DNA of 64,000 nt from Escherichia coli (GTDB lineage Bacteria; Pseudomonadota; Gammaproteobacteria; Enterobacterales; Enterobacteriaceae). Shown in pieces: positions 52,145 to 63,251 of this stretch. Position numbers and translations under genes: made by a program. The notes beneath the pieces are model-generated. The model was not told the DNA's origin. It did not search any database and worked only from the letters and a program-made list of their open reading frames with translations. Within the stretch, counting starts at the first letter, position 1. The number at the start of each line of letters is the position of its first letter. The stretch is taken from NCBI RefSeq assembly GCF_024502345.1, contig NZ_JALDNN010000001.1. One strand, 5' to 3'.

Positions 52145-52220
52145 GCCCGGATAGCTCAGTCGGTAGAGCAGGGGATTGAAAATCCCCGTGTCCTTGGTTC
52201 GATTCCGAGTCCGGGCACCA
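52145..52220 (+). tRNA. pheU: tRNA-Phe (GAA)
   Basis: GCCCGGATAGCTCAGTCGGTAGAGCAGGGGATTGAAAATCCCCGTGTCCTTGGTTCGATTCCGAGTCCGGGCACCA is a 76-nt tRNA with anticodon GAA and an encoded CCA. It lies next to yjdC, as pheU does in K-12. Confidence 0.97.
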
Positions 52221-52262: not shown

Positions 52263-52390
52263 CTGGCTACGGTAGATTTCTGGTCGTTGCGGCACGTTAT
52301 TTGTTTGCTGGATTTCTCGCCATTTTCGCAGTTGTTCGTTACTTTTAGACACCTCAACATCCTTTGATGTACCTTTTCCTAACCTCACAG

Positions 52391-52417
52391 CTACGGTCTT
52401 TCTACGGTCCTCTACGA
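52391..52417 (+). repeat. Phased direct repeats CTACGGTC / CTACGGTC / CTACGA (10-11 bp register)
   Basis: Copies start at 52391, 52402 and 52412. A fourth copy, CTACGGTA, lies at 52267-52274. Confidence 0.6.
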
Positions 52418-52456
52418 TTCCTTTCTCTCAGAGCATTCATAATAAAGTAGAAAATA

Positions 52457-52560
52457 CGGGGAAAACGGGGGAATTATCATTTCGCCCTAATCCGCAGGTC
52501 TTAACGTGATTTTGTCGCGGGGAATAAGGTGGGGAAATCCCCAATAGCAAGCGGGGAAAT
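52457..52560 (+). repeat. Cluster of five direct CGGGGAA(A/T)-type repeats
   Basis: The copies are CGGGGAAAA at 52457, CGGGGGAATT at 52466, CGGGGAATA at 52518, TGGGGAAAT at 52530 (followed by CCCC) and CGGGGAAAT at 52552. An inverted copy AATCCCCCG lies at 52659-52667. Confidence 0.6.
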
Positions 52561-57766: not shown

Positions 57767-58194
57767 TCCATTTTAATTTATCTACATCGCTTAAAGGCAA
57801 ATGATGCCACCGGCTACCAATTAAAAATTATCTCAACCTGAGAGATTTTTCCAGACTCCAAACGAAAATAAAAAACTACTCGTCACGTCCCTCCTGGCAC
57901 ATAGCCGACACCAAAACCAGCAACATATGGACAACGGTCCCTGCCCTGATGGCAGGTAATTGTATCAGACTTAAACACATATTATTTCTGTGAACTCCCC
58001 CCAACGGCAGTCCTTTCCTCTGAAGACCAGAACCAGACCGTAAAGCCTGCTCTTTCTGCATTTCCCGTATTAATTCATACCATGTGGCACCAGCATTCCC
58101 TTCGCCACACCAGAAAATCAATTCCCCAATAAAAAAGTGCCGTGCCGGGGATGGGTCAACCCTGACGTTCTTTACACCAGTCACAGGAGGTTAT

Positions 58195-59379
58195 ATGTCC
58201 ACCCCCAAACGCTTCCGTTTTACTAATCAGCTCATTAAATCCCTGCCCCCTAACACATCCGATGCACGCAGTACCGATGCCGAATACAGCGACACCGAGA
58301 TTTCCGGCCTCAAGTGTCTGGTCAGCAGAAGAGAAGGTCGTAAAAAGTTTTTGCTACGCTACCTTTATCATGGACGAAAACGCGCCATCGCCATTGGTCA
58401 CTGGCCTGAAGTGGACGTCAATCTTGCTCGTCAGATTGCCATAGAACACAAACGTTCCCTTGCCACCGGCACTGACCCTAAGCAGGAGCGTGAAAACAAG
58501 AGAATGGAGCTGACGTTCGATGAACTCTTTAATCAGCATTATCTGCCATGGGCAAAATCCGCTAAACGCAGTTGGGGAAAGGATGTTCAGCGCTACCGCG
58601 ATCATATCCGTCCCGCCATTGGTCAGAGGCTGCTGAGCGATATCACACCAGCGAGCATTCTGCGCCTTCAGCAGACGTTAAGTACTTCCCTGTCAGCAGC
58701 TACCTGTAACCGTGTCATCGTACTCATTAAAGCCGTCTTTACATGGGCCGGAAGGCAAAGCATGACCTCTGTCCATCCGGCAAGGGTGGTACAGCTTCTC
58801 AGGGAGAACAACGCCCGACAGCGCTATTTCACCGAGGACGAAATTCGTCGTATTTTTCTCTCCGCCGATAACGATACCAGCCCCGTCGCGGCCCGCTATG
58901 TCAAACTGTTGTTACTGACCGGCCTTCGTCGTGATGAGCTGCGTCTGGCTAAGTGGGAGCATGTTGACCCGGTTAAACGCACCCTGTGGCTCCCGGAAAC
59001 CAAGAATGGCTATGGGCGGATTGTTCACCTTAACTCACTGGCGATGGACGTAATCAGAACGCTGCCAACGCAGCGGGGAAATCCGTGGTTGTTTATCGGT
59101 AAAAAACAAGGAATGCCGCTGAATAACCCCGTTAAAGCCTTTCAGCGTATCGTTCGTCGGGCGGGAATTTTCGACCAGGAAGTGTGTATTCATACCTGCC
59201 GCCATTCGGTTGCCGCCCTCATCGTGTCCTACGGCGGAACACTGTATGACGTTCAGGCTCAACTGGGGCACCGCAGCAGTCAGTCTTCACAACGTTATGC
59301 GCATCTTCACCCTCAGCGCTTACAAAACACCAGTCAGTTACTGGCGGAAAGGATAACGGCTCAGCTACCGTCCTTGTGA
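58195..59379 (+). CDS. Tyrosine-type site-specific integrase (int1)
   Basis: ORF 58084..59379 trimmed to the ATG at 58195, preceded by AGGAGG (MSTPKRFRFTNQLIKSLPPN..., 394 aa). It has an N-terminal arm-binding-like segment (IAIGHWPEVDVNLARQIA). The catalytic signature is TGLRRDEL, HTCRHS, LGHRS and RYAH. Confidence 0.88.
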   Translation: MSTPKRFRFTNQLIKSLPPNTSDARSTDAEYSDTEISGLKCLVSRREGRKKFLLRYLYHGRKRAIAIGHWPEVDVNLARQIAIEHKRSLATGTDPKQERENKRMELTFDELFNQHYLPWAKSAKRSWGKDVQRYRDHIRPAIGQRLLSDITPASILRLQQTLSTSLSAATCNRVIVLIKAVFTWAGRQSMTSVHPARVVQLLRENNARQRYFTEDEIRRIFLSADNDTSPVAARYVKLLLLTGLRRDELRLAKWEHVDPVKRTLWLPETKNGYGRIVHLNSLAMDVIRTLPTQRGNPWLFIGKKQGMPLNNPVKAFQRIVRRAGIFDQEVCIHTCRHSVAALIVSYGGTLYDVQAQLGHRSSQSSQRYAHLHPQRLQNTSQLLAERITAQLPSL

Positions 59380-59388
59380 TAACAGAAA

Positions 59389-59419
59389 AGCAGAGGCAAG
59401 TGCCCCTGCTTTTTTTTTA
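59389..59419. terminator. Hairpin terminator shared by int1 (+) and the 118-aa gene (-)
   Basis: The stem AGCAGAGG/CCCCTGCT (one mismatch) is followed by nine T on the plus strand, with a weaker UUUCUGU on the minus strand. Confidence 0.65.
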
Positions 59420-59434
59420 CTGTTCAGCCATCAG

Positions 59435-59791
59435 TCAGAACGGGATGGCCCCATATTCTTCATCCGGCACCCGGTTATCATCAAATCTGTTATAGAGTTC
59501 ACGAGCACACTCGCGCGCGTCTTTAATAGACATACGAGGGAACCTGCCGAGGGGTTCATAATAGCAGGCCCCTTCAAGCGTATAACGAGCCAGGAATTTA
59601 ATCTCACCGTTGGCAATGACGGCCCGGAGCGCAGGCTCGCTGCCATCGAAGATTTCACGAGAAATGCCGTGATAAAGGCACTCCGCCAGTGTGTTAACCA
59701 GAGCGTAATCATTGAATGAGGTTTTTTCTTCATTTTCGCTGCTGATAGCGTGAGGAAAACCGTCATAGTACTGGTCTGATTCAAAAATCAT
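59435..59791 (-). CDS. Small protein carrying a stand-alone integrase N-terminal (DUF4102-like arm-binding) domain
   Basis: 118-aa ORF with an AAGGTG Shine-Dalgarno 5-10 nt upstream of the ATG. GEIKFLARYTLEGACYYEPLGRFPRMSIKDARECARELYNRF aligns by eye with int2 GRIKFIVRKSIRGKNIYVAVGGYPEISIKDAREHAFKIIQEL. Confidence 0.7.
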   Translation of the reverse strand: MIFESDQYYDGFPHAISSENEEKTSFNDYALVNTLAECLYHGISREIFDGSEPALRAVIANGEIKFLARYTLEGACYYEPLGRFPRMSIKDARECARELYNRFDDNRVPDEEYGAIPF

Positions 59792-59840
59792 ACATCACCT
59801 TCTATTGGTTGTTATTCAGTCAAAATGGTTTTATTCAGGG

Positions 59841-61769
59841 TTAAAATTCGGTCATCACATTGCATTTCAGAAACGCTTTTTTGACCTGGTAGTAAGACTG
59901 CGCCATCGTCTTCAGCGCTCTTTTTTTATAGTGTCCGGCACTTTCGCCAAGCAGATAACCGGAACGCTCTAACGGTCTGGCCACATCAACGGTCTTAAGT
60001 CCCTTTTCAGAACAGAGCTTTTCAAACACCGATTCATAAATCAGGAAGTCGCCGGTTTTGTAATGGACGAATCCCCACATATCTCCCGGGCATCGGGCAT
60101 GTTCGTCACGCAGGGTGATAAAGTGCCTGCTGCTTTTTGTCACCAGCGTCAGCTGAAGCTCCTCCAGCATGTTACGCACCGGGTTATACTGATTCTGGTT
60201 ATCATCCAGCCAGCGTCGTGCAGCGGACATAACGGATTCAGCCACCGCATCGCTTTCGAAAGGTAAAAGGCCATATTTCAGCGCCTTCTCTCCTGCCAGC
60301 CATACCAGCGCAAATCTTTTCAGTCCGCGCCGCTGAACGCGGGTAATATCACGCCCCTCATCCCTCAGGGCCTCTTCCAGTGCGTTACAGCAATCATCTG
60401 TCTGTTCCTGGAGCCAGGATGAAAACTCTGCGTAGGTGCGAAGACCGCCAGCCGTATTTTTCCCGGATAACAGTTTGCCGATAAATGCAGGCCCGGCATG
60501 ACCATAAGCCTCTGCCAGCCCCGTCTTCAGTGCATCTGCACGGGCACGTGTTTCTGATACCGGTTCATCCGGTTTTTGAGCATCCTCAGGCAACAGTTCC
60601 ATACTGATGGCCCTGTGCTCCTGCCCTCCCTGTAACACGGCTTTCTGTTCAGCCAGCTTTTCGGAGATTGACATCTCACCGGTGGAGAGAATAAACATGC
60701 GCCATTTAAACGGCTCATCTGCCGTCAGGCCACGGTTCAGGCGCTCTTTTGCCGTACCTGACGTAATGTTGTAAAGCAGTGAGGAAAGTTGCTTATGATT
60801 ACTCGCACCCAGTTCATCGACGCAGGCGACCAGACCGGAATAGTCAGCGAGAAGGCGCTCCATCGCGTTAGGCGTGGTATTCCAGCGAATAATATTTACA
60901 TTCCCCCCACTACCCGGCTCGCTGCCATCACCATGGACCGATGCAGCCAGCATCAGGAGAAGCGTTTTACCGGTGGTGGATACGCCGTGAAAATGAAACA
61001 TGCCCACATCCATACCGGCAGGAACCAGAAGCATCGAAGCAAAGGACGCACTCAGTGCAAAGGTCTGCGCCCAGCCATGGACATTTTCCCGGATGAGGTT
61101 AATCCACTCCTCCAGGGCCCCACCTTTGTGCAGTCCGGGACGCACGCGGAATCCCGGCAGTAGATAATCAAACCCGGTCAGAGAGGTCACAACGGGCTCA
61201 TGACCATGTAAAAAGGCCATATCCTCCGAAACGAATCCCATCGCATCTGCCATCAGATAGACAGGCAGCGGTAAACTCCGGCAGCGCTGAAGAAAACGGT
61301 CAAAAAGGGCAAACTGCTGTGGAGAGGAGCCAACACAAAATCCACGATCTGCCAGTTTGCCTACTACCTGAGCACCGCTCTGAACAATATCCTCAAAGCG
61401 TACCAGGGCCTTAACATACTTACCCAGCCCGTTACCGGTCATCAGGCTGATCCCAAGACCGGACTCCTTATCTTTTCCACAAAACAGGGCGACAGGCACA
61501 ACTGGCGTGGTGCAAACCTGCACAGGTTTCTGTCCACCGATGTAGAAAAGGCCATTAGCCGTATTCACATAATGCCGTGGCAGCCCATCACCAATACCGA
61601 GTGAAGCGATATCATCTTCACCGACCTCAGTGTTTTCAGCACGCCTGATAATTGCTTCCGACATTTTGTTGAAATTTTTATCGCGGTCAGCAAAAGCGCG
61701 AATACGCTTAATCCCGGAAACCTTAGGAACATTAGTTGTCACTTTTTTATTCATGTGTATTACCATCAA
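59841..61769 (-). CDS. DUF927-like P-loop helicase / replication initiator of a mobile element (start codon uncertain)
   Basis: 642-aa ORF. Its N-terminal region (NGLFYIGGQKPVQVCTTPVVPVALFCGKDKESGLGISL...) resembles DUF927 as I recall it. Walker A is HGVSTTGKT and Walker B is LVACVDELG. The alternative start MNKKVTT lies 5 codons in. Confidence 0.7.
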   Translation of the reverse strand: MMVIHMNKKVTTNVPKVSGIKRIRAFADRDKNFNKMSEAIIRRAENTEVGEDDIASLGIGDGLPRHYVNTANGLFYIGGQKPVQVCTTPVVPVALFCGKDKESGLGISLMTGNGLGKYVKALVRFEDIVQSGAQVVGKLADRGFCVGSSPQQFALFDRFLQRCRSLPLPVYLMADAMGFVSEDMAFLHGHEPVVTSLTGFDYLLPGFRVRPGLHKGGALEEWINLIRENVHGWAQTFALSASFASMLLVPAGMDVGMFHFHGVSTTGKTLLLMLAASVHGDGSEPGSGGNVNIIRWNTTPNAMERLLADYSGLVACVDELGASNHKQLSSLLYNITSGTAKERLNRGLTADEPFKWRMFILSTGEMSISEKLAEQKAVLQGGQEHRAISMELLPEDAQKPDEPVSETRARADALKTGLAEAYGHAGPAFIGKLLSGKNTAGGLRTYAEFSSWLQEQTDDCCNALEEALRDEGRDITRVQRRGLKRFALVWLAGEKALKYGLLPFESDAVAESVMSAARRWLDDNQNQYNPVRNMLEELQLTLVTKSSRHFITLRDEHARCPGDMWGFVHYKTGDFLIYESVFEKLCSEKGLKTVDVARPLERSGYLLGESAGHYKKRALKTMAQSYYQVKKAFLKCNVMTEF

Positions 61770-61838: not shown

Positions 61839-63251
61839 TTACCCCATCGCCCGGTTAACGACTTCGTGGTAACGCGCCGGGGAAGCGTGCAAGTAAAGCT
61901 CCGTTACTTTGATAGTGCTGTGACCCAATAAGTCTTTGACGGTGTGAATGTCGGCCCCGCTCTCAATGAGCTTTGTCGCAAAGGTATGACGCATCTCATG
62001 GATGGTGAACGGTGGAATACCCGCAGCCTCACAAAGTCGTTTTTGCAGGCGACGCGGCTCAGCAACCGGATTGTCGGTTCCCTTGCCCGGAAATACCCAG
62101 CCTTCATCACCCAGATGCTGACGCTGTTCTGTCAGAAGAACGAAAGCCTTATCACATACCGGTACACGGCGTAGTTTGCCGTTTTTGGTATGGCGAAGGG
62201 TGATAACCTTGCGGCTCCAGTCCACATCTTCAAGACGAAGGTGACGGGTTTCCCCCAGACGCAGCCCCGTCAGGGCAAGGAACATGAGAAGAGCAAGGGC
62301 TTCATGATCGGGTTTACCATTACGCCAGCGCTCACAGACGTCCATCCAGCGCTGAAGCTGGGAGTCATCCATGGCACGGCGATCTGACGTCACTTCAGGC
62401 AGCGCTTTGATATAAAGCGCCGGAGAGCGGCTGATGTATCCCATGCGTATAGCCCAGGTAAACACCGCTTTAATGAGCGCCAGATGGCGGTTGCGGGTGG
62501 CAGGCTTGAGATCGAGATTATGCAGATAGCTCAGAATATCTGCCTCCGTCATACCTGCCAGCTTTTTGTCACCGAGAAGAGGGCGCAGGTATTTACGGAT
62601 CTTAGAAAGGTCGGTGTTAGCTGAACGCTTAACGCCCGTGCTGAGTACGCTTTTCTCATACTCATCCACAAGCTCATTAAACGTCATTTTACTGTGAGTA
62701 AGAAAACGCTCACCGTAAGCCTCAACGGCGGTCTTGAGCTCCTGAATTATTTTAAAGGCATGCTCCCTTGCATCTTTAATTGAAATTTCCGGGTAGCCTC
62801 CTACGGCAACGTAGATATTCTTTCCGCGAATACTTTTGCGGACAATAAATTTAATGCGACCTGATGGATAGAATATTGCCTTAAGTCCGGTTAACTTCTT
62901 ATCGCTGGTCTCGATTGTTTGTGCAGCTTGTACTGCACGGATTTTATATTCATCAAAAAGGGCTTTAGTAAAAACACCTCCAGTATTTTTAGGTGCAACC
63001 CCTGGATATTCTACAACATCAGATACTCCAGAGTCGGAATACCCCTGAGCTTCCACATCTACATTGAAGGAATTTTTATGAGCAGCTGTGATGCTCTTTT
63101 CATCCAGCACTTGCGTTATTTTATTTAAAGGGTAATTAACTTTCATAATATGTACATGGTCCTCTGAAAATTCAGATGATAATGAGTAATTTAATATGTC
63201 GGCCAACAATGGGATAAGCTTATTTATTCGTGGCATCACTTTCAAGCCCAT
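61839..63251 (-). CDS. Tyrosine-type site-specific integrase (int2), with a long N-terminal extension
   Basis: 470-aa ORF. It has an arm-binding segment (VAVGGYPEISIKDAREHA) and a catalytic signature of TGLRLGETRHL, HEMRHTFAT, LLGHSTIKVTELYLH. The start codon is uncertain because no clear Shine-Dalgarno is visible. Confidence 0.85.
   Translation of the reverse strand: MGLKVMPRINKLIPLLADILNYSLSSEFSEDHVHIMKVNYPLNKITQVLDEKSITAAHKNSFNVDVEAQGYSDSGVSDVVEYPGVAPKNTGGVFTKALFDEYKIRAVQAAQTIETSDKKLTGLKAIFYPSGRIKFIVRKSIRGKNIYVAVGGYPEISIKDAREHAFKIIQELKTAVEAYGERFLTHSKMTFNELVDEYEKSVLSTGVKRSANTDLSKIRKYLRPLLGDKKLAGMTEADILSYLHNLDLKPATRNRHLALIKAVFTWAIRMGYISRSPALYIKALPEVTSDRRAMDDSQLQRWMDVCERWRNGKPDHEALALLMFLALTGLRLGETRHLRLEDVDWSRKVITLRHTKNGKLRRVPVCDKAFVLLTEQRQHLGDEGWVFPGKGTDNPVAEPRRLQKRLCEAAGIPPFTIHEMRHTFATKLIESGADIHTVKDLLGHSTIKVTELYLHASPARYHEVVNRAMG

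What the first reader, a model, noticed from the sequence alone, without database searches (positions are those of the whole stretch)
59435..59791. 118-aa gene is a free-standing paralogue of the integrase arm-binding domain
Residues around 60-105 read GEIKFLARYTLEGACYYEPLGRFPRMSIKDARECARELYNRF. They align by eye, position for position, with the N-terminal arm-type DNA-binding segment of int2 (GRIKFIVRKSIRGKNIYVAVGGYPEISIKDAREHAFKIIQEL). They align more loosely with int1 (KKFLLRYLYHGRKRAIAIGHWPEVDVNLARQIAIEHKRSL).

The gene has a good Shine-Dalgarno (AAGGTG) and its own stop, so it does not look like a frameshifted integrase remnant. A detached arm-binding domain could compete for integrase arm sites, acting as a directionality or immunity factor. 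It could also regulate the element. I am not aware that this arrangement has been characterised.
Basis: seen in the sequence. Interest (0 to 1): 0.5.

Follow-up and report, generated by a model that had tools for sequence, protein, structure and literature searches.

The report
Stand-alone integrase arm-domain protein, SSB-like tail
The 118-residue gene is a real, conserved copy of an integrase's N-terminal DNA-arm-binding domain that lives on its own in a tRNA-Phe genomic island; it has turned acidic and usually ends in the same Ile/Leu-Pro-Phe tip as the bacterial SSB protein, so it probably works through protein contacts rather than by competing for integrase DNA sites.

Summary

It is a selected gene (dN/dS about 0.24), not a pseudogene. 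Its stop is followed by a terminator and the convergent int1. NCBI already names it "Arm DNA-binding domain-containing protein". I found no functional study.

It is the last gene of an int2 / Cch-like DUF927 helicase operon. The host is a roughly 21-kb pipolin-like island lacking piPolB, at tRNA-Phe in Enterobacterales.

- The protein has pI 4.6, and its domain carries net charge -2, against +7 (int2) and +4 (int1).
- Variants only 35% identical sit beside integrases that are 93-99% identical.

New finding: a disordered acidic tail ends in [IL]PF in 42 of 54 distinct variants, like the SSB tip DDDIPF. My best guess, at low confidence, is an accessory adaptor or decoy of the excision-replication module that engages SSB-partner proteins. 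Three natural elements lack the gene, so it is dispensable there.

This is a moderately interesting new variant of a known domain.

The parts
59435..59791 (-). 118-aa gene encoding a stand-alone arm-type (DUF4102-like) domain protein; coordinates include the stop codon
   Evidence: ORF listing. Homology to integrase N-domains. Fold match to 3JTZ. Purifying selection, dN/dS about 0.24. RefSeq name 'Arm DNA-binding domain-containing protein'.
59726..59791 (-). Codons 1-22: acidic N-terminal extension carrying the conserved G-F-P-x-A-I motif, absent from integrases
   Evidence: F12 and P13 are invariant across all subfamilies. The segment lies outside the hhalign match, which starts at residue 23. 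The model shows no regular secondary structure here, with pLDDT 45-77.
59477..59725 (-). Codons 23-105: the folded domain, with helix 28-41, four strands at 45-84 and helix 89-103. It is homologous to the complete N-terminal domain of int2-type integrases.
59438..59476 (-). Codons 106-118: disordered acidic tail (NRVPDEEYGAIPF) ending in I-P-F, resembling the SSB C-terminal tip DDDIPF
   Evidence: pLDDT is below 50 for residues 111-118. P117 and F118 are invariant and I116 is at least 90% conserved in the close family, despite tail insertions of 4-27 residues. [IL]PF ends 42 of 54 distinct family C-termini. Among 849 ORFs of at least 60 aa scanned in 340 kb, the only 9 that end in [IL]PF are copies of this gene family.
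59796..59801 (-). Shine-Dalgarno sequence AAGGTG, 4 nt before the ATG
   Evidence: Read directly from the sequence.
59380..59419 (.). Bidirectional intrinsic-terminator hairpin shared by the arm gene (-) and int1 (+)
   Evidence: Inverted repeat of 19-nt arms, 84% complementary, flanked by a T-run on one side and an A-run on the other. The terminator-like site on the minus strand is at 59409-59396. The same hairpin is present in related loci.
59841..61769 (-). DUF927 gene for a Cch/SaPI-Rep-like replicative helicase. It lies immediately upstream of the arm gene on the same strand, with a 49-nt gap.
   Evidence: Pfam DUF927 at 7e-34 plus HTH_56. NCBIfam SCCmec Cch1 at 2e-22. phrog_8841 'DNA primase/helicase' at 1e-41. 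PDB 5dgk (SCCmec helicase) at 1e-14 and 8tch (SaPI protein) at 7e-12.
61839..63251 (-). int2, a tyrosine integrase carrying a DUF4102 arm domain. It is the first gene of the int2-DUF927-arm gene string and the closest relative of the 118-aa protein.
   Evidence: Pfam Phage_integrase at 5.5e-32 and Arm-DNA-bind_3 at 1e-5. BLASTP to the arm ORF at 5e-9. Related loci call it at 385-474 aa, so the true start may be internal to this ORF.
58084..59379 (+). int1, a P4/IntSXT-type integrase convergent on the arm gene. It is the most conserved gene of the module and is probably the tRNA-Phe integrase. Its probable start is at 58195.
   Evidence: Pfam Phage_integrase at 4e-23 and Arm-DNA-bind_3 at 3e-13. 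It is 80-100% identical among elements. In elements without cargo on that side it sits next to tRNA-Phe.
52145..52220 (+). tRNA-Phe gene. Its 3' part is the attL core of the island.
   Evidence: ARAGORN. In the complete island in E. coli MB15, a 52-nt direct repeat of the tRNA 3' end bounds a 21-kb element (L001 13556 and 34538).
52267..52560 (+). Candidate arm-type sites next to attL, in a stretch conserved among elements whatever their cargo. They comprise the 19-nt motif GGTAGATTTCTGGTCGTTG (52271-52289), CTACGRT at 52267, 52391, 52402 and 52412, and GGGGRAA at 52458, 52467, 52531 and 52553.
   Evidence: Alignment of 7 elements, mean identity 86%. The 19-nt motif recurs inside attR of the complete island (L001 34396), with 0.02 matches expected by chance. 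Which protein binds these sites was not determined.

Best explanation
What it is (shown): a selected, free-standing copy of the entire N-terminal arm-type (DUF4102) domain of an int2-like IntSXT/P4-type integrase. Two parts have been added: a conserved acidic N-terminal peptide and a disordered acidic C-terminal tail. It is the last gene of the int2 / Cch-like DUF927 helicase gene string in a pipolin-like island that lacks piPolB, inserted at tRNA-Phe in Enterobacterales.

How it most likely works (inferred): it has been re-purposed from a DNA-arm reader into a small accessory adaptor or decoy of the island's excision-replication module.
- The folded domain would dock onto island machinery, either the helicase and its origin or an integrase complex.
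- The flexible tail ends in [IL]-P-F with a free carboxylate, the same tip that SSB uses to recruit its partner proteins. It would recruit or titrate host SSB-partner proteins.
- The most coherent version concerns priming. The island carries a Cch-type helicase, but no primase or polymerase domain was detected by the Pfam, NCBIfam and PDB sequence searches. An SSB-tip adaptor could bring in DnaG, the clamp-loader chi subunit or PriA.
- The gene is accessory rather than essential, because natural elements without it exist.
For: Homology and fold:
-, as detailed in the observation check.

A real gene:
- dN/dS is 0.24 overall and 0.12-0.17 for codons 23-62, similar to the neighbouring DUF927 gene at 0.22-0.25.

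Operon position:
- The gene follows the helicase gene on the same strand after 49 nt.
- No credible promoter of its own was found, and a terminator follows directly.
- The same order is found in 27 of 30 independent DUF927 loci and in all genome loci examined.

Linkage to the helicase:
- Between the window and L014, nucleotide identity is 96-100% through int2 and int1.
- It is 34-72% from 61848 to 59454, the block holding DUF927 and the arm gene.
- Arm-protein identity tracks DUF927 identity (Pearson 0.88) better than int2 (0.45) or int1 (0.26).

Loss of DNA-binding character:
- pI is 4.56 and net charge -10. The domain has net charge -2, against +7 (int2) and +4 (int1).

The SSB-like tip:
- The tail is predicted to be disordered.
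- It ends in IPF in two subfamilies only 36% identical to each other, and in DLPF in Salmonella and Pectobacterium members.
- 42 of 54 distinct C-termini end in [IL]PF.
- In 340 kb of these regions, every ORF of at least 60 aa that ends this way belongs to this family.
- The SSB-Ct hexapeptide DDDIPF is the docking site for DnaG and at least 17 partner proteins (PMC5872125, PMC10018359).

The helicase:
- It is of the Cch/SaPI-Rep type.

The element:
- It shares the pipolin core of two tyrosine recombinases, DUF2787 and a WYL regulator (PMC11551731).
Against: - No binding of any kind was tested, so the mechanism rests on sequence resemblance and gene context.
- The tip is not universal. Variants end in IQF, IDF or IPFGNNS, where the Phe is not C-terminal. 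One widespread E. coli subfamily (P0037) has no tail at all, yet sits in the same operon.
- Residues just before the tip (EEYGA, DYEH) are less acidic than SSB's DDD.
- Coupling to the helicase is not strict. Arm subfamily B occurs behind two DUF927 types only about 49% identical to each other. Co-exchange of two adjacent genes between conserved flanks may also reflect position alone.
- Truncated islands keep the arm gene and int1 after losing int2 and most of DUF927.
- Three contigs have int2-DUF927-int1 with no arm gene.
- Three outward-facing basic residues (R56, K65, R69) are retained in the main subfamily, so some DNA binding cannot be excluded.
- phrog_8841, the best PHROG match of the helicase, is labelled 'DNA primase/helicase'. 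The absence of a primase domain is therefore not established, which weakens the priming argument.
Confidence: 0.3

Rival explanations
1. The detached arm domain still binds the arm-type DNA sites of int1 or int2. By occupying or bridging them it acts as a directionality factor, an integration or immunity inhibitor, or a repressor of the module.
For: - It is a true homologue with the same fold as a domain whose known job is arm-site binding (PMC8138268 for the DUF4102 arm domain of IntSXT integrases).
- The main subfamily keeps R56, K65 and R69 on the sheet.
- Arm-type repeats exist beside attL and attR.
- No canonical Xis- or AlpA-type gene was detected in the conserved core, so an excision factor is unaccounted for.
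- The gene stays paired with int1 in truncated islands.
- From my own knowledge, not checked here: the lambda Int N-domain supplied in trans modulates the recombinase.
Against: - pI is 4.56 and the domain has net charge -2, against +7 and +4 in the integrases. Known directionality factors are typically small basic proteins (general knowledge).
- K65 and R69 are replaced in subfamilies B and C.
- Subfamilies 31-45% identical to each other coexist with near-identical int1, int2 and attL arm DNA, which is not expected for a competitor that must read the same sites.
- The most conserved parts are the N-terminal peptide, helix 1 with strand 1, and the tail tip. The sheet face is less conserved.
- Elements without the gene exist.
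Confidence: 0.22
2. It modulates an integrase by protein-protein contact, as a dominant-negative or chaperone-like subunit. The free N-domain would insert into, or cap, the layer of integrase N-domains in the recombination complex without binding DNA. The tail would be a degradation or interaction tag unrelated to SSB.
For: - It is a paralogue of the int2 N-domain with the fold preserved and DNA-binding charge lost.
- It lies in the same gene string as int2 and is convergent with int1.
- It is retained with int1 when the helicase is lost.
Against: - Its sequence does not co-vary with either integrase. In particular, an int2 N-domain differing by one residue (L004 versus the window) is paired with arm proteins only about 35% identical.
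- Oligomerisation of DUF4102 domains was not examined here.
- This model does not explain why the tail tip matches SSB so closely.
Confidence: 0.15
3. It is a non-functional leftover of a broken integrase gene that merely remains open.
For: - It carries only the N-terminal domain of an integrase.
- Frameshifted copies occur in some genomes (C-termini ending RSD).
- A few elements lack it.
Against: - dN/dS is about 0.24 and as low as 0.12 in codons 23-62.
- Intact ORFs of 113-145 aa are kept across subfamilies down to 31% identity.
- It has its own ribosome-binding site and terminator.
- No catalytic-domain remnant lies downstream.
- Features absent from integrases are conserved, namely the FP motif and the tail tip.
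Confidence: 0.03

Closest known systems
N-terminal arm-type binding domain (DUF4102, Pfam PF13356 Arm-DNA-bind_3) of P4-like/IntSXT tyrosine integrases, for example the Yersinia HPI integrase (PDB 3JTZ, 3RMP) and the HAI7 integrase (3JU0)
   Different: It is not attached to core-binding and catalytic domains. It is acidic where the integrase domains are basic. It has a 22-residue conserved N-terminal extension and a disordered acidic tail. It scores below the Pfam gathering threshold. DNA binding is untested.
[quoted passage not shown]
   Same: It has a disordered acidic tail of variable length whose last residues are [IL]-P-F with a free C-terminus, with an aromatic residue 5-6 positions upstream. 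The definition of SSB-Ct is taken from PMC5872125 and PMC10018359.
   Different: There is no OB fold and no evidence of ssDNA binding. The three residues before [IL]PF are not the DDD of SSB. Several subfamilies have a changed or missing tip. This is a resemblance of one motif, not membership, and binding is untested.
Recombination directionality factors (Xis, AlpA/TorI/Vis, Cox)
   Same: It is a small protein encoded beside integrase genes of an integrative element. No other candidate excision factor was recognised in the module.
   Different: The fold is different (arm-type sheet rather than winged helix or HTH). The protein is acidic rather than basic. It gives no hit to any excisionase family in Pfam, NCBIfam or PHROGs.
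Replication modules of SCCmec (Cch helicase operon) and SaPI (Rep), which pair a self-loading MCM-like helicase with small accessory proteins
   Same: The neighbouring DUF927 protein matches SCCmec Cch (5dgk, 1e-14) and a SaPI protein (8tch, 7e-12), and carries the Cch C-terminal HTH. A small acidic protein is encoded in the same operon.
   Different: The 118-aa protein has no detected sequence similarity to families of those operons. Its fold comes from an integrase. No origin of replication was identified.
Gammaproteobacterial pipolins (PMC11551731)
   Same: The element has two tyrosine recombinases, a DUF2787 gene, a WYL-domain regulator and orphan genes near the tRNA integration site, with variable defence cargo on both sides.
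   Different: No piPolB gene is present in any locus examined, and a Cch-like helicase plus the arm-domain gene occupy the replication slot. The target is tRNA-Phe. The pipolin paper mentions 'piPolB-less, pipolin-like islands' only in passing, and its text contains no mention of DUF927 or DUF4102.

Membership tests
Arm-DNA-bind_3 / DUF4102 domain proteins (PF13356) | Sequence match to the family profile at the curated threshold | tested here: inconclusive
   The window protein scores 22.8 bits (E=1e-4), below the 27-bit gathering score. Three close homologues carry a precomputed PF13356 hit. Profile-profile comparison with int2-type N-domains is decisive, at 98.9% and E=3.8e-17.
Arm-DNA-bind_3 / DUF4102 domain proteins (PF13356) | Fold: four-stranded antiparallel sheet with flanking helices, as in the HPI integrase arm domain | tested here: met
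Arm-DNA-bind_3 / DUF4102 domain proteins (PF13356) | Basic DNA-binding surface | tested here: not met
   Net charge of the domain is -2 (family range -6 to +4), against +7/+8 for int2-type and +4 for int1 domains. K65 and R69 are not conserved across subfamilies.
Arm-DNA-bind_3 / DUF4102 domain proteins (PF13356) | Binding to arm-type DNA sites | not testable with these tools
   This needs EMSA or footprinting on the repeats at window 52267-52560.
Tyrosine integrase pseudogene fragment | Remnant of core-binding or catalytic domain downstream in any frame, and relaxed selection | tested here: not met
   tblastn with int2 and int1 finds nothing on the minus strand downstream of the stop. All three frames there are full of stop codons and overlap int1 on the other strand. 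dN/dS is about 0.24.
Recombination directionality factors (Xis/AlpA/Cox types) | Small size and location beside an integrase gene | tested here: met
   118 aa. The stop is 55 nt from the int1 stop, and the gene is in the same string as int2.
Recombination directionality factors (Xis/AlpA/Cox types) | Basic protein with a winged-helix or HTH DNA-binding fold, or a match to an excisionase family | tested here: not met
   pI is 4.56. There is no excisionase family hit in Pfam, NCBIfam or PHROGs. The fold is arm-type.
Recombination directionality factors (Xis/AlpA/Cox types) | Stimulates excision and inhibits integration | not testable with these tools
   This needs excision and integration assays with and without the gene.
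Bacterial SSB | OB-fold ssDNA-binding core | tested here: not met
   No SSB or OB family hit was found. The model has the arm-type fold.
Bacterial SSB | Disordered acidic C-terminal tail ending in [IL]-P-F-COOH | tested here: met
   The tail NRVPDEEYGAIPF has pLDDT below 50 at residues 111-118. 42 of 54 distinct family C-termini end in [IL]PF. Exceptions exist (IQF, IDF, IPFGNNS, no tail).
Bacterial SSB | The tail binds SSB-interacting proteins | not testable with these tools
   This needs peptide binding assays or complex structure prediction with chi, DnaG-C, PriA, ExoI or RecQ.
Pipolins (host element, not the gene) | piPolB gene as hallmark | tested here: not met
   Gene content of complete or long loci (L001, L002, L011, L014-L017) shows no polymerase gene. 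A DUF927 helicase occupies the slot between the two integrases. No dedicated piPolB profile search was run.
Pipolins (host element, not the gene) | Core of two tyrosine recombinases, DUF2787, a WYL regulator and orphan genes next to a tRNA site, with defence cargo | tested here: met
   (DUF2787 at 5.7e-32; HTH plus WYL). (tRNA-Phe and a 52-nt direct repeat). (SIR2-HerA cargo). The core is defined in PMC11551731.

The most novel reading that the evidence does not exclude
An integrase arm-binding domain has been domesticated into a small adaptor that carries a copy of the SSB C-terminal tip. Through that tip, a chromosomal island plugs its own Cch-like helicase, origin or recombination complex into the host SSB interactome. 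It would either recruit DnaG, chi or PriA to a replicon that has no primase or polymerase of its own, or act as a decoy that titrates SSB-partner nucleases and helicases away from the excised circle. This would be a case of SSB-tail mimicry by a protein that is not an SSB, encoded by a mobile element.
Probability: 0.2. Interest if true: 0.7.

Novelty: new variant of a known kind. Interest (0 to 1): 0.45.

Why it matters
Arm-binding domains are regarded as the feature that turned housekeeping tyrosine recombinases into integrases of mobile elements (PMC8138268). They are known as parts of integrases.

Here the domain exists as a separate, selected protein that has lost its basic character and gained an SSB-like tail. 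It sits in a family of defence-carrying islands found in at least 133 of 5,426 complete E. coli genomes.

If the tail really engages SSB partners, two things follow. It would show a new way for islands that lack a polymerase and have no recognised primase to recruit or disarm host replication and repair factors. It would also give a handle on how pipolin-like islands without piPolB replicate. If instead the protein turns out to bind arm sites, it would be a new structural class of directionality or immunity factor. Both outcomes can be tested with simple assays.

In practical terms, the gene is a reliable marker of this island family. Current annotation ("Arm DNA-binding domain-containing protein") probably overstates what is known about its activity.

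Tried and rejected
- Sequence search of the family profile against PDB chains gave only noise (MARK kinases at E about 0.05; 3jtz at E=0.34). Only the fold comparison was informative.
- The first AlphaFold run, with a shallow alignment of close homologues, was poor (pLDDT 53.5). Adding the distant subfamilies and int2 N-domain fragments raised it to 79.8.
- The third homologue search, using the int2 N-domain, returned only 7 partial proteins.
- The AFDB fold library was unavailable.
- No iterons or origin-like repeats were found in or around the arm gene. The int2 upstream intergenic region of L001 has only modest inverted repeats.
- NCBIfam and PADLOC gave no hit for the 118-aa protein. PHROGs gave only phrog_3423, of unknown function, which int2 also hits.
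- There was no match in the phage or plasmid collections.
- Literature searches for stand-alone arm domains or SSB-tail mimics found nothing relevant. One of these searches was badly chosen and returned mostly unrelated papers.
- A weak promoter-like site at 59815-59787 was rejected as the gene's own promoter, because its -10 element overlaps the start codon.
- The overlapping 117-aa ORF in another frame (59431..59784) was set aside as spurious. Homology and codon-level selection support the 118-aa frame.
- Strict co-evolution with the helicase was considered and downgraded after arm subfamily B was found behind two different helicase types.
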